From the sequence record CP054387.1: a stretch of 64,000 nucleotides of DNA; one strand, given 5' to 3'. Shown piece after piece: positions 9,001 through 12,000 of the stretch. The DNA is from Escherichia phage CMS-2020a. Made by a program: the position numbers. Every line of letters starts with the position of its first letter. Position 1 is the first letter of the stretch.

Positions 9001-12000
9001 GGCACGGAGGATTTCTTCATCAACCAGACTGGTTGGTTCAGAAGCTGGGGTGTGAGCGGTAGCTACAGCAGTCGCACCCTCCGTATGACCAGTGACAGAG
9101 CCAAATCCAGGCAGTGCCGCGGCCGATGTTTTCGCGGTAGAGGAAATTGCTGGTGCCGATGCAGAGGCAGTTGGTGCTGCGATGCCAATCAGACGACCCA
9201 TAGTGCGAACTGTCGAGAGAAGACGAGTTTCATCAGCCTGATTTGCGTATGCGATCAGATCATGCTGGGTATTCCAGAATTTATCTTCGATATCGCCTTT
9301 GTAGACTTTACGCTTAGGCGAGACGTCATATTTGGTATCGCGACCAGAGCCAGTACGTTTAATCAGGAATGCGTAGCCTTCCTCTTTGCTCAGTGGATTG
9401 CCGATATCATCAGCGATGTCTTCGGTGATTGCTTTGCAGATATCATCGAATACAGTAGACGGCAGCTCGATTAACTGGCATTTCTCAGCATCTGCGAAAT
9501 CCTCACGAGCAGAAAGAATGCCGTTGACCAGATAGCGAGGAGTGGCACGCATTTGACCGATGCGTTCTTCCATTGCTTTGTTACCCTTGTGACGAGCGCG
9601 ACCTTCCATCACCATTTCGCATAGCTGACAAGCGCGACCGTGAGTATGTTGCTCACAAATATAAGCGTTGGTTGCTTCTTTACCTTCCTCGTTCTGATAC
9701 TTAACGTAGTGCATACCGAAAGTCTGGAAGAACTTACCGTTTGGGTCGTCTTTATTCGGGAAGATGCGGATATAGTTGACGCCGTCTTTTAAGCGAGTCA
9801 GATCAACGTTGTTACCACGTTTGGCGGCAATGTCTTCACGAGTTTTGTTAAGCAAATCAAGTAATGTCTTAGACATGTGTTTCTCCTTGTTGTGATTTGG
9901 CCGATGGCGCTATGCGCGTTGGGCTTTCGTTCATTCGTGGCTCTTTCGAGCTGTTAAATGATAGATCAGTACTTACTTATTATCTATCAAAAATCAACGG
10001 GGAGTAATAAAGCGTTCAGAGCCTAATCGCTCTAATTCAACGATGGCCATCTTTGACGCCTGAACGATCATGTCTCGGCGATGCGAAAAGGCGGCGACAG
10101 CATGTTTGTATATGTCTGCGATGTGCCGTGCTTCATCCAACTTCTGCCGTTTAGACAGATACTGTGGGTTTGTTTTAACCTTAGCGTCCAGTACAGACTC
10201 GTTGAACTTAATGCCGTTCATACTCAAGTTCTTACGCTCTGTGTCGTATAGCTTTGCTTCAACAGCTTCAAGGTTAAGTTTTGCCTCTGCGACACTTCTT
10301 TCTGCATGAGCGAGTTTTGAGCCATACTCCATTAAAAGGCGGGGTTGTCTACGCCAGACTTCCTCCAGATTGTCTCGGTCAAACTCGAGATCAGACATTA
10401 TTTTCTCGTAAATATCGGTGATCATGTGCTTTCCTTTTTACTTATCATTTTATATTGATTATATCATTGTGATGATAAGGCAAGGAGTTCGAGGATAGGG
10501 GATATGAGGGGATAAGGGAAAACATGGCCATAGAGGCCATGTTTATGGGATCACGTCTTAATGGTTTCTGCTACGTCGGCTAATATCGCTTCTAGTCGTT
10601 CTCCCTCTTCAGGTCTGAAGTAAAGAATGTTGGGGTTAAACCCGTAAAAGACAGTAACGTCAAGGTCTGGAAGGTACTCCTTCCTGCCGACCAAATCGGA
10701 TGGCTTGTTTTTGTTGTTAAACAATGCCGTTGCCCGGCTGCCACACGTCAGCACATAGGTCGGACGCACCAGATTGATCTCTTCACGTATAAAGTCGGTG
10801 AACTGGCCGATCTCGTCTTTGGTGTAGTCTTTTTCTTTGTCTTTAACCTTCTTGCAAACGCCTGTGACATAGAGATCGCCCATGCGTAAATCTCCAGCCG
10901 TCAATAGCTTGGCCTTAAAGTCGTCGTATCCGTTCTCCATAAAGTAACCGGTTCGAGCATCATTGCCGTTCGCATTGTCCAGAATGATCATGATTTTCGG
11001 CTTAATGCCAATGCTAGGGCGGATTAGTTCATCACCTAATCCCATTTCAGCCGCCATCCGTGTCATGAGCACGTTAATCTCAGCCGAACGTTTGGGGTTC
11101 ATCTCAAACGGACGTGAGGCTTTAACTGCGTCTATGACAAGGTTTCCCATCAATTCAGCCTGGTCGCGGAGACGCTCTGGATCAGTTGCTGGCAGACTAC
11201 CTGGCTCGATGGATGCAAACGCACCTACTTTTTGCAGTGATTCGCGCACTCGACTATTACAGGCACGTTTCTCGACAGCTTCTTCGAATTGCGCCAGTGA
11301 CTCGAATTTGCCGCCAACTTTTTCTCGCGCTCTCATGATGGCTTGGCAGCCATTCTCAGAACACCCTTTCACAGCAGAGAAGGGCGCATACAGCACCTGG
11401 CTGCCATCTTCAAGCGTGCGGATCTCGATTCGGTTAGATGACACGTTAACGTCTGGTGGCAATACGCGAATACCATAGGTCAGCGCATCTTTAACCAGCC
11501 CCTGGTGTTTATCTTCGCCAAGAATAGTGAGAGCAGCAGCGAAGAACTCCGCGGGATAATGAGTTTTCAACCACATAGATTGATAACTGATTAAGGAGTA
11601 AGCAACAGAGTGTGATTTGTTGAACTGGTAGGCACCATTCTTTTCGAATGCGGTCCAGATCTCCTTCGCTTTCATCTCTGATAGCCCTGGATGTGACGCT
11701 GTAACGCGTACTGCGTTTATAGGTAGTTTTGCGCCGTACTCAAGTGCCTCTTCGACAGTTTTCAGAGTTCCGTCTTCGCATTTAAAATGTTCCGCACGGT
11801 GAATGCGCTGTGTAGTGCCATCTTCCAGCTCAACGTCTATCCAGCCAGCTTGAGCCTGAACGATGAACTTCTCGCCCATGCTCTTCATTTTTTCCATGTC
11901 TTTTTTGCCGATCGCTTTACGAACGCCGTCAGCTTCAGCCATTGTGAAGCCAGCAAGCAATCGAGTCGCGTTCATCGTCTGTTCCTGATAGAGAATCACG

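What the first reader, a model, noticed from the sequence alone, without database searches (positions are those of the whole stretch)
10551..11030. C-terminal UDG-like domain with altered catalytic motifs fused to the DnaE-type polymerase
The last ~160 residues parallel the family 4 uracil-DNA glycosylase fold block by block (KIMIILDNANGNDARTGYF; LYVTGVCKK; YVLTCGSRATALF; FYGFNPNILYFRP), but the canonical GEGPG and HP(S/A) motifs are replaced by LDNANG and NPN. UDG-like domains attached to phage polymerases are a known theme. A catalytically altered version on a DnaE-type enzyme could sense rather than excise uracil or modified bases.
Basis: partly seen in the sequence, partly recalled or inferred. 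Interest (0 to 1): 0.5.

Follow-up and report, generated by a model that had tools for sequence, protein, structure and literature searches.

The report
Degenerate UDG-fold tail on phage-plasmid DnaE
The DNA polymerase of this E. coli phage-plasmid does end in a domain with the fold of a uracil-DNA glycosylase that has lost the residues used to recognise and cut out uracil, but the fusion was already reported in 2014 for the same plasmid family and its role is still untested.

Summary
Observation confirmed. The ORF at 10551-14069 (-) encodes a 1172-aa DnaE-type polymerase. Its last ~155 residues (window 10554-11018) are a family-4-derived UDG-fold domain:
- A family profile hits solved family-4 UDGs at E=6e-21.
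- The AF2 model has pLDDT 93 and Foldseek TM 0.77-0.84 to family-4 UDG/UdgX.

This domain replaces the OB and tau-binding domains of cellular Pol III alpha.

The functional residues of family 4 are changed:
- GE(A/G)PG becomes LDNAN.
- The uracil-binding Asn becomes Gly.
- Motif B HPS..R becomes NPNILYF.
- All four Fe-S cysteines are absent.

The same degeneration occurs in about 107 related tails (His kept in 1 of 107). These tails share their own conserved signature, including an invariant Glu, so the domain is under selection.

The window is an SSU5-like phage-plasmid. The tail occurs in 942 PLSDB plasmids, including Y. pestis pMT1, and in Pseudomonas and Rhizobium phages.

The architecture is prior art: Timinskas et al. 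2014 described exactly this variant. Inactive UDG domains on phage PolA are also known.

The "uracil sensor" idea is untested, and the loss of the uracil-contacting residues weakens it. The most likely role is a non-catalytic accessory module (DNA handling or replisome docking). Interest is low to moderate.

The parts
10551..14069 (-). Whole gene: 1172-aa DnaE-type (C-family) DNA polymerase of an SSU5-like phage-plasmid. PGAP names it 'dnaE, DNA polymerase III subunit alpha'.
13542..14054 (-). PHP domain (res 6-176). The canonical N-terminal HxH metal-binding motif is replaced by RTDFSLGES (res 7-15, window 14025-14051).
   Evidence: Pfam PF02811 E=7.7e-13. N-terminal motif comparison across 36 full-length relatives.
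12357..13145 (-). Pol III alpha palm/NTPase core (res 309-571).
   Evidence: PF07733 E=1.3e-73. Aligned to Taq and E. coli alpha.
11850..12350 (-). Fingers domain (res 574-740).
   Evidence: PF17657 E=2.5e-44.
11694..11843 (-). Lineage-specific ~50-aa insert (res 743-792). It is absent from E. coli and Taq alpha and from the more distant relative P0114. In Klebsiella and Acinetobacter relatives an HNH/NUMOD4 homing endonuclease gene splits the polymerase gene at this point.
11199..11693 (-). Beta-binding/(HhH)2 domain (res 793-957). This is the last segment that aligns with cellular Pol III alpha.
   Evidence: PF14579 E=1.9e-16. Aligned to Taq 789-946 and E. coli 733-894.
11019..11198 (-). Ordered helical linker (res 958-1017) between the HhH domain and the UDG-like domain.
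   Evidence: AF2 model of res 801-1172: pLDDT 85-96 across the linker, with helices at 964-977 and 992-1008.
11139..11174 (-). Conserved linker motif RLRDQAELMGNL (res 966-977). The family consensus is R-x-[KR]-D-Q-x-E-L-[ML]-[PG]-G-[LIV]. It is a candidate beta-clamp-binding motif (compare E. coli alpha 920-QADMF-924), or alternatively the counterpart of the alpha helix 895-RAALMNSL-902.
   Evidence: Conservation R 87/89, Q 78/89, L 69/89. E. coli comparison. Predicted helical. The assignment is unresolved.
10554..11018 (-). UDG-fold domain of family-4 ancestry (res 1018-1172). It replaces the OB and tau-binding domains.
10968..10982 (-). Counterpart of family-4 motif A, GE(A/G)PG: L1030-D1031-N1032-A1033-N1034. 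Only the acidic residue is retained.
   Evidence: D in 95/107 tails, first Gly not among the common residues, Pro in 76/107 (Ala in the window subgroup).
10842..10871 (-). Y1067-V-T1069-G1070-V-C-K1073-K-V-K1076, the counterpart of family-4 'YiTN..KCRPP'. The uracil-binding Asn is Gly here, the Fe-S Cys is lost, and Y, T, K and K are conserved across the family.
   Evidence: Y 104/107, T 106/107, K1073 101/107, K1076 94/107; position 1070 is G/S/A/T. Role of N91 from PMC10359453.
10779..10781 (-). E1097, invariant in 107/107 DnaE tails. It is Gln in the four family-4-like UDG hits used for comparison.
10611..10637 (-). Counterpart of family-4 motif B, HPS(S/A)(L/V)(L/V)R: N1145-P-N-I-L-Y-F1151-R-P. 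The catalytic His is Asn and the backbone-binding Arg is Phe.
   Evidence: position 1145: N67 S25 T12 G2 H1; P1146 104/107; position 1151: F71 H15 Y6. Roles of H178 and R184 from PMC10359453.

Best explanation
The tail (res 1018-1172) is a true homolog of family-4 uracil-DNA glycosylases. It has been recruited as a non-catalytic accessory domain of a phage and phage-plasmid replicative DnaE polymerase, and it takes the place of the OB-fold and tau-binding domains of cellular Pol III alpha.

Shown:
- The fold and the family-4 ancestry.
- Loss of the uracil-recognition and leaving-group residues (Asn, His), the motif-B Arg and the Fe-S ligands.
- A family-specific conserved signature across more than 100 sequence clusters.
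- Confident rigid packing against the HhH/beta-binding domain through an ordered helical linker.
- Co-inheritance with that domain as a separate ~390-aa subunit in split-gene relatives.

Inferred: the domain does not excise uracil. With its remodelled cleft (D1031, Y1067, T1069, K1073, K1076, N1145-P1146) it helps hold or guide DNA, either template or product, next to the polymerase. This would make it a built-in DNA-handling or processivity element, as proposed for inactive UDG domains of N4-like and T5-like PolA and as known for poxvirus D4.
For: Homology and fold.

Replacement of OB/CTD: the NCBIfam DnaE profiles are covered only to about position 883 of 1151. Taq and E. coli alpha align only to res 953-957.

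Loss of canonical residues family-wide: with residue roles from PMC10359453.

Purifying selection on a new signature: invariant E1097 and more than 90% conservation of Y1067, T1069, K1073, P1103, G1110, G1128 and P1146.

Breadth: 135 representatives of 50%-identity clusters, nearly all DnaE-type. The tail is in 942 plasmids and in nickie-like and RHEph10-like phages.

Two-domain module: pLDDT 91, pTM 0.83. A split form with a 389-aa HhH+UDG-like ORF exists.

Precedents for non-catalytic UDG modules on polymerases: PMC3201878 and PMC10201439. BFVD fold neighbours include many UDG-PolA proteins.
Against: No biochemical data exist.

The tail is acidic (window pI 5.0, net charge about -4; family median pI 6.2), whereas four of the five UDG-like comparison hits are basic (pI 8.4-9.7). 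This fits poorly with a general DNA-binding or processivity role.

The motif-A acid (D1031) and the motif-B Pro are retained, so residual or altered catalysis is not excluded.

The conserved positions could be fold-stabilising rather than DNA-contacting. I could not map them onto coordinates.

If the linker motif is a real clamp-binding site, the enzyme gets its processivity from the host beta clamp and needs no intrinsic factor.
Confidence: 0.45

Rival explanations
1. Protein-docking hub. The UDG-fold tail functionally replaces the tau-binding C-terminal domain and tethers the polymerase to another replisome protein, encoded by the element or the host. Candidates are the DnaB-like helicase, the gp32-like SSB, the FEN exonuclease and host epsilon or beta.
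For: The tail occupies the position of the tau-binding CTD. No clamp, clamp loader or tau is annotated in the element, while a DnaB-like helicase, a gp32-like SSB, a FEN and a ligase are. The acidic surface charge is atypical for a DNA binder. An invariant surface-type residue (E1097) and a family-specific K1120-G loop lie outside the classical UDG motifs.
Against: Much of the conservation falls on the loops that form the DNA and nucleotide cleft in real UDGs. No partner was identified and no co-variation or complex prediction was done.
Confidence: 0.25
2. Active or base-reading site with new specificity. The remodelled pocket still flips and reads a nucleotide. It would either excise a base other than canonical uracil using D1031, with Asn in motif B as in family-2 MUG-type enzymes, or stall or signal on encountering it. 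This would resemble SP15-like UDG-PolA or archaeal PolB read-ahead.
For: The acid of motif A is kept in 99/107 tails (D 95, E 4) and Pro of motif B in 104/107. An active UDG fused to a replicative phage PolA that acts on the template ahead of the fork is documented (bioRxiv 10.1101/2025.03.26.645540). An ATP-dependent ligase and a FEN are encoded nearby.
Against: The equivalents of N91, H178, R184 and the stacking Phe are all replaced, and His is kept in only 1 of 107. The scores are below the curated thresholds of both UDG models. No Pol X, AP endonuclease, dUTPase or base-modification genes are annotated in the first 45 kb. The ligase and FEN are explained by Okazaki-fragment processing.
Confidence: 0.17
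3. Evolutionary relic. The tail is an inactivated UDG domain with no remaining function, retained only because it is needed for folding or stability.
For: The catalytic motifs are degenerate.
Against: There is strong family-specific conservation over more than 100 clusters at 50% identity or below, including an invariant Glu. The domain is retained in both fused and split gene forms across Enterobacteriaceae, Acinetobacter, Pseudomonas and Rhizobium elements.
Confidence: 0.05

Closest known systems
'DnaEX' variant with UDG domain (Timinskas, Balvociute, Timinskas, Venclovas 2014, NAR 42:1393; PMC3919608)
   Same: It is the same protein family. [quoted passage not shown] The window tail is 94.6% identical to that of Y. 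pestis pMT1 NC_004835.1 and to Salmonella plasmids.
   Different: The paper gives one sentence and a domain cartoon. It contains no analysis of active-site residues, phage distribution, split-gene forms or function. The window copy is the E. coli ortholog.
Family-4 uracil-DNA glycosylases (UDGa; T. thermophilus 1UI0, T. maritima 1L9G, S. tokodaii 4ZBX) and UdgX
   Same: Same alpha/beta/alpha fold (TM 0.77-0.84) and clear sequence homology at profile level (E 1e-13 to 6e-21). The order of conserved blocks is the same.
   Different: Motif A GE(A/G)PG is LDNAN. The Asn of TN(A/V)V is Gly. Motif B HPS..R is NPNILYF. No Fe-S cysteines are present. The domain is acidic rather than basic. It is fused to a polymerase. 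It scores below the curated family thresholds.
N4-like (and T5-like) UDG-PolA: A-family phage polymerases with a catalytically degenerate family-4 UDG domain (Czernecki et al. 2023, PMC10201439; Kazlauskas & Venclovas 2011, PMC3201878)
   Same: A family-4-derived UDG domain with unconserved catalytic residues is built into a phage replicative polymerase. A non-catalytic processivity or architectural role has been proposed. These proteins are fold neighbours in BFVD.
   Different: Those domains are N-terminal and sit on A-family polymerases. This one is C-terminal, sits on a C-family polymerase and replaces OB/CTD. The fusion event appears to be independent.
SPO1-like and SP15-like UDG-PolA with active UDG (Missoury et al. 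2025, bioRxiv 10.1101/2025.03.26.645540)
   Same: A UDG-fold domain is physically coupled to the replicative polymerase.
   Different: Those proteins keep motifs UDG-A and UDG-B, excise dU ahead of the fork, and occur in phages with hypermodified thymidine together with Pol X and ligase. Here the motifs are lost and no modification pathway is annotated nearby.
Poxvirus D4 (UDG) with A20, the processivity factor of the B-family polymerase E9
   Same: A UDG-fold protein serves the replicative polymerase in a role separate from repair (cited in PMC3201878 and PMC4889955).
   Different: D4 is a separate, catalytically active family-1-type UDG bound through A20. It is not a fused, degenerate family-4 domain.
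OB-fold plus tau-binding C-terminal domains of E. coli and Taq Pol III alpha
   Same: Same position in the polypeptide, immediately after the (HhH)2/beta-binding domain.
   Different: There is no sequence or fold relationship. The window protein has no detectable OB or CTD.

Membership tests
UDG superfamily (fold level) | alpha/beta/alpha sandwich with a central four-stranded parallel beta-sheet, superposable on solved UDGs | tested here: met
   AF2 model has pLDDT 93.3. In Foldseek against PDB the top 36 hits are family-4 UDG or UdgX (TM 0.74-0.84), followed by TDG/MUG.
Family-4 UDG (UDGa) | Motif A GE(A/G)PG | tested here: not met
   The window has L1030-D-N-A-N1034. Across 107 tails Gly is not among the common residues at the first position, the acid is kept as D in 95, and Pro is kept in 76.
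Family-4 UDG (UDGa) | Motif B HPS(S/A)(L/V)(L/V)R, with a His that H-bonds uracil and an Arg that binds the DNA backbone (PMC10359453) | tested here: not met
   The window has N1145-P-N-I-L-Y-F1151. In the family, position 1145 is N67/S25/T12/H1 and position 1151 is F71/H15/Y6.
Family-4 UDG (UDGa) | Conserved TN(A/V)V Asn that reads the uracil Watson-Crick face | tested here: not met
   The window has T1069-G1070. In the family, position 1070 is mainly G28/S27/A27/T20, and Asn is not among the common residues.
Family-4 UDG (UDGa) | Four Cys ligands of the 4Fe-4S cluster (N-terminal CxxC, the Cys of KCRPP, and a downstream Cys). This feature is taken from my own knowledge of 1UI0/1L9G and is seen in hits P0249, P0254 and P0259. 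| tested here: not met
   The window tail has none of the four. In the family, 36/106 keep CxxC plus C1090, and C1074 is present in only 6.
Family-4 UDG (UDGa) | Score above the curated thresholds of TIGR00758 and PF03167 | tested here: not met
   TIGR00758 scores 34.9 bits against a cut-off of 125.3. PF03167 scores 19.7 against 24.3. Some 53-61%-identical relatives do carry a precomputed PF03167 call.
Family-4 UDG (UDGa) | Uracil excision activity | not testable with these tools
   Requires an enzyme assay.
DnaE-type C-family polymerase | PHP, Pol3 core, fingers and (HhH)2 domains | tested here: met
   PF02811, PF07733, PF17657 and PF14579 are all above threshold. TIGR00594 scores 631.7 bits against a cut-off of 434.
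DnaE1 (cellular replicative Pol III alpha) | C-terminal OB fold and tau-binding CTD | tested here: not met
   Alignments to Taq and E. coli alpha stop at res 953-957. The equivalog models are all below cut-off.
DnaEX-UDG variant of Timinskas et al. 2014 | An extra plasmid-borne DnaE with OB+CTD replaced by a PF03167-type domain, found in Y. pestis and S. enterica | tested here: met
   The tail is 94.6% identical to those of Y. pestis pMT1 and Salmonella plasmids. The gene is always on plasmids in E. coli (244/5426 genomes). The text of PMC3919608 was read.
UDG-PolA (N4-like, SPO1-like, SP15-like) | UDG domain at the N-terminus of an A-family polymerase | tested here: not met
   The polymerase is C-family and the domain is C-terminal. 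There is only a weak local match to phrog_17 (E~1e-6) and fold-level similarity.

The most novel reading that the evidence does not exclude
The remodelled cleft is conserved across more than 100 clusters of phage and phage-plasmid DnaE polymerases. It comprises D1031, Y1067/T1069, K1073/K1076, the invariant E1097 and [N/S/T]1145-P1146. In the most novel reading this cleft is a working nucleotide-reading site. It would be either a glycosylase with a new specificity or a read-ahead sensor that couples C-family replication to surveillance of template or product bases. That would be a C-family counterpart of SP15-like UDG-PolA or of archaeal PolB uracil read-ahead.
Probability: 0.12. Interest if true: 0.65.

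Novelty: already known. Interest (0 to 1): 0.28.

Why it matters
This element family is clinically widespread. It includes SSU5-like phage-plasmids, Y. pestis pMT1, Salmonella plasmids and many Klebsiella, E. coli and Acinetobacter plasmids, 942 PLSDB records in all. All of them replicate with a DnaE that has swapped its OB and tau-binding domains for a degenerate UDG fold.

Knowing what that module does would show how a C-family polymerase can work outside the cellular Pol III holoenzyme. It would also add a third independent case, after PolA phages and poxviruses, of UDG folds being co-opted by replicases.

One practical point also follows. PGAP names the split C-terminal half 'uracil-DNA glycosylase family protein' in Acinetobacter plasmids. 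By the residue criteria tested here, that name is probably a functional mis-annotation.

Tried and rejected
1. The word-indexed homolog searches with the tail alone and with the tail profile returned almost only short fragments and were of little use. The exhaustive HMMER search gave the family instead.

2. I first read the conserved linker motif (966-RLRDQAELMGNL-977) as the internal beta-clamp-binding motif, because it fits Q-x-x-[LM]-[FLM] and sits just after the HhH domain. Two results weaken that reading. The direct comparison with E. coli alpha shows it could equally correspond to the helix 895-RAALMNSL-902, which lies upstream of QADMF. AF2 also predicts it as an ordered helix. I left the assignment unresolved.

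3. An OB or tau-binding domain hidden in the tail is rejected. There is no alignment beyond res 957 to Taq or E. coli alpha, and the fold is unambiguously UDG.

4. A decaying pseudodomain is rejected because of the family-wide conservation.

5. Three literature searches for a DnaE-UDG description found nothing directly. It was then located in PMC3919608 by DOI. The Aravind & Koonin 2000 paper (PMC15025) was not held.

6. I could not obtain model coordinates, so conserved residues were placed only by homology to UDG motifs and not mapped in 3D.
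Full report
**What is there**

The window is part of an SSU5-like phage-plasmid.
- The polymerase gene is 96.9% identical in DNA to Escherichia phage PhiR41_1 and 85% to Salmonella phage SSU5.
- It is 100% identical to plasmids of E. coli O104:H4.
- In complete E. coli genomes it is found in 244 of 5426 strains, always on plasmids.

The ORF at 10551-14069 on the minus strand encodes 1172 aa. Pfam finds PHP (6-176), the Pol III alpha core (309-571), fingers (574-740) and HHH_6 (866-955), all well above threshold. NCBIfam places the protein in the Pol III alpha superfamily but below every equivalog cut-off. 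Public records simply call it 'DNA polymerase III subunit alpha'.

**Checking the observation**

With the single sequence, the match to UDG models is real but below threshold:
- PF03167: E=9.5e-4, 19.7 bits against a cut-off of 24.3.
- TIGR00758 (family 4): E=1.1e-8, 34.9 bits against 125.3.
- phmmer against PDB: weak hits to four family-4 UDGs and nothing else relevant.

An exhaustive HMMER search of 1.84 billion cluster representatives with residues 1005-1172 found 135 clusters at E<=1e-3. A 39-sequence profile of these tails (A1) hits solved structures as follows:
- S. tokodaii UDG: 5.7e-21.
- T. maritima UDG: 2.5e-18.
- T. thermophilus UDG: 4.8e-18.
- UdgX: about 1e-13.

The AlphaFold2 model of the tail is confident (pLDDT 93.3, pTM 0.89). 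Its 36 best Foldseek matches in the PDB are all family-4 UDG or UdgX (TM 0.74-0.84), followed by TDG/MUG. The protein aligns with Taq and E. coli Pol III alpha only up to residue 953-957. No OB or tau-binding domain is present.

**The altered motifs**

Published work on UdgX and family 4 (PMC10359453) defines these functional elements:
- Motif A, GE(A/G/Q)PG.
- The conserved TNAV segment, whose Asn (N91) H-bonds uracil.
- Motif B, HPS(S/A)(L/V)(L/V)R, whose His (H178) also H-bonds uracil to promote departure of the uracilate.
- The Arg of motif B (R184), which binds the DNA backbone.

In the window protein these positions read L1030-D-N-A-N1034, T1069-G1070 and N1145-P-N-I-L-Y-F1151. The position of the uracil-stacking Phe is Met1044. 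None of the four Fe-S cysteines is present.

This is not a peculiarity of one sequence. Among 107 aligned tails:
- Gly is not among the common residues at the first position of motif A.
- The Asn position is mainly G, S, A or T.
- The His position is N67/S25/T12/G2/H1.
- The Arg position is F71/H15/Y6.
- The motif-A acid is kept as Asp in 95/107.
- The motif-B Pro is kept in 104/107.

The tails also share their own signature: Y1067 (104), T1069 (106), K1073 (101), K1076 (94), E1097 (107/107; Gln in the four UDG-like comparison hits), P1103, G1110, K1120, G1128, Y1132, D1137 and G1143. The domain is therefore under purifying selection for something other than canonical uracil excision.

**Who carries it**

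Segment-by-segment matching shows that nearly all 135 representatives are DnaE-type proteins.
- About 45 are full-length (1077-1155 aa) with the order PHP, palm, fingers, HhH, UDG-like.
- About 30 are proteins of 380-420 aa that begin just before the HhH domain and end with the tail.

The second group comes from genuine split genes. In Klebsiella SSU5-like plasmids a 233-aa NUMOD4+HNH_3 homing endonuclease ORF lies between a 787-aa N-terminal ORF and a 389-aa HhH+tail ORF. The same arrangement is seen in Acinetobacter plasmids, where PGAP names the C-terminal half 'uracil-DNA glycosylase family protein'. The split falls inside a ~50-aa insert that the window protein carries uninterrupted.

Among cultured phages, the tail is found on the DnaE of Pseudomonas nickie-like and Rhizobium RHEph10-like phages of about 112-117 kb. 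In PLSDB it is found in 942 plasmids. These include 346 from Klebsiella, 219 from Escherichia, 110 from Acinetobacter, 91 from Enterobacter, 63 from Yersinia (including pMT1) and 49 from Salmonella.

**Structure of the C-terminal module**

Residues 801-1172 were modelled using the stand-alone halves as the alignment. The result has pLDDT 91.2 and pTM 0.83, and the linker is ordered, with helices at 964-977 and 992-1008. This suggests that the UDG-like domain is held in a defined position against the HhH/beta-binding domain, rather than dangling from it.

The linker carries a strongly conserved motif, R966-x-[KR]-D-Q970-x-E-L-[ML]-[PG]-G-[LIV]. It resembles the clamp-binding consensus and E. 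coli alpha's QADMF. It could equally correspond to alpha's helix 895-RAALMNSL-902, and it is predicted to be helical. I therefore treat clamp binding as a candidate only.

**Mechanism**

The element encodes the following, with no clamp, clamp loader, tau, epsilon, stand-alone UDG, dUTPase or base-modification enzyme annotated in the first 45 kb:
- a RepB initiator;
- a DnaB-like helicase;
- a gp32-like SSB;
- a FEN-type 5'-3' exonuclease;
- an ATP-dependent ligase;
- a RecA-like protein.

My best-supported reading (confidence 0.45) is a non-catalytic accessory domain that substitutes for OB/CTD and helps handle DNA beside the polymerase. This is the role long proposed for degenerate UDG domains on T5-like and N4-like PolA and known for poxvirus D4 (PMC3201878, PMC10201439).

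The main evidence against this reading is the acidic character of the tail. The window tail has pI 5.0 and the family median is 6.2, against 8.4-9.7 for four of the five UDG-like comparison hits. This keeps a protein-docking role alive (confidence 0.25), in which the tail functionally replaces the tau-binding domain.

The motif-A acid and the motif-B Pro persist, and active UDG-PolA fusions exist. However, every residue known to contact uracil has been replaced. A functionless relic is unlikely (0.05) given the conservation.

**Comparison with what is known, and novelty**

Timinskas et al. [quoted passage not shown] PF03167'. The window tail is 94.6% identical to those of pMT1 and the Salmonella plasmids, so this is the same protein family and the fusion is already known.

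Kazlauskas & Venclovas 2011 had noted only that viral C-family polymerases have an unassignable C-terminal region. A 2026 survey of bacterial polymerases does not mention UDG at all.

I did not find the following in the searchable literature:
- the family-wide loss of the uracil-contacting residues together with a new conserved signature;
- the breadth of the family among phages;
- the homing-endonuclease split that makes HhH+tail a separate subunit.

These are increments on a known architecture and do not amount to a new kind of system. By fold, the domain belongs to the UDG superfamily. By every defining residue tested, it is not a member of the family-4 enzyme family.

**Verdict**

The sensing hypothesis remains untested and is weakened by the residue analysis. 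The architecture is prior art. Interest is 0.28.

Noticed in passing
window 11694-11843 (res 743-792); L004 6361-7062; L006 2180-2755: In Klebsiella and Acinetobacter relatives the dnaE gene is split by a free-standing NUMOD4/HNH homing endonuclease ORF. The result is a ~787-aa PHP-palm-finger protein and a ~389-421-aa HhH+UDG-like protein. The split lies inside a ~50-aa insert that the window protein carries intact. About 30 sequence clusters of such stand-alone C-terminal halves exist.
   Followed up: partly
window 14025-14051 (res 7-15): The N-terminal HxH metal-binding motif of the PHP domain (canonical ...HLHxHSxYSxLDG) is replaced by RTDFSLGES. Of the 36 full-length family representatives examined, 35 show the same degenerate pattern and one has the canonical motif. 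The PHP exonuclease is therefore probably inactive, and no epsilon-like proofreader is annotated nearby.
   Followed up: partly
window 11139-11174 (res 966-977): A highly conserved linker motif, RLRDQAELMGNL, resembles a beta-clamp-binding motif (E. coli alpha QADMF). It could instead match alpha's helix 895-RAALMNSL-902, and AF2 predicts it to be helical.
   Followed up: partly
tail domains of distant relatives (e.g. P0142, P0143, P0151; alignment): About a third of the tails (36/106) keep an N-terminal CxxC plus the downstream Cys (position 1090) of the family-4 Fe-S site but lack the KCRPP Cys. Many have a conserved His after the CxxC. This may be a remodelled metal site. The window subgroup has lost all of these residues.
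   Followed up: partly
window 8848-9876 (-): PGAP annotates this 342-aa ORF as a hypothetical protein. It occupies the position of an ORF that carries Pfam gp32 (PF08804) in the Klebsiella relative. It has an Ala/Ser/Thr-rich, acidic C-terminal tail and is probably the element's SSB.
   Followed up: no
window 6501-7574 (-) versus L002 685-3024: The RecA-like gene is 1074 nt here but 2340 nt in Escherichia phage PhiR41_1 and 2199 nt in an Acinetobacter plasmid. This suggests an intein or another insertion in those copies. Some database proteins (P0104, P0110, P0125) combine PHP/Pol3 and RecA Pfam domains, possibly through deletions that fuse the two genes.
   Followed up: no
L006 2752-4017 (Acinetobacter plasmid p5388_2): PGAP names the split C-terminal half of the polymerase 'uracil-DNA glycosylase family protein'. 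By the residue criteria tested here, this is probably a misleading functional name.
   Followed up: partly
window 14250-17689 (-): A CobS-like AAA (MoxR-type) ATPase and a CobT-related protein lie immediately upstream of dnaE. They are conserved in that position in SSU5 and in the Klebsiella relatives. Their role next to the replication genes is unexplained.
   Followed up: no
window ~21800-22400 (by homology to NZ_CP124394.1): A cluster of four tRNA genes (Ser, Thr, Tyr, Asn) is annotated in the near-identical plasmid. I did not scan the window itself for them.
   Followed up: no
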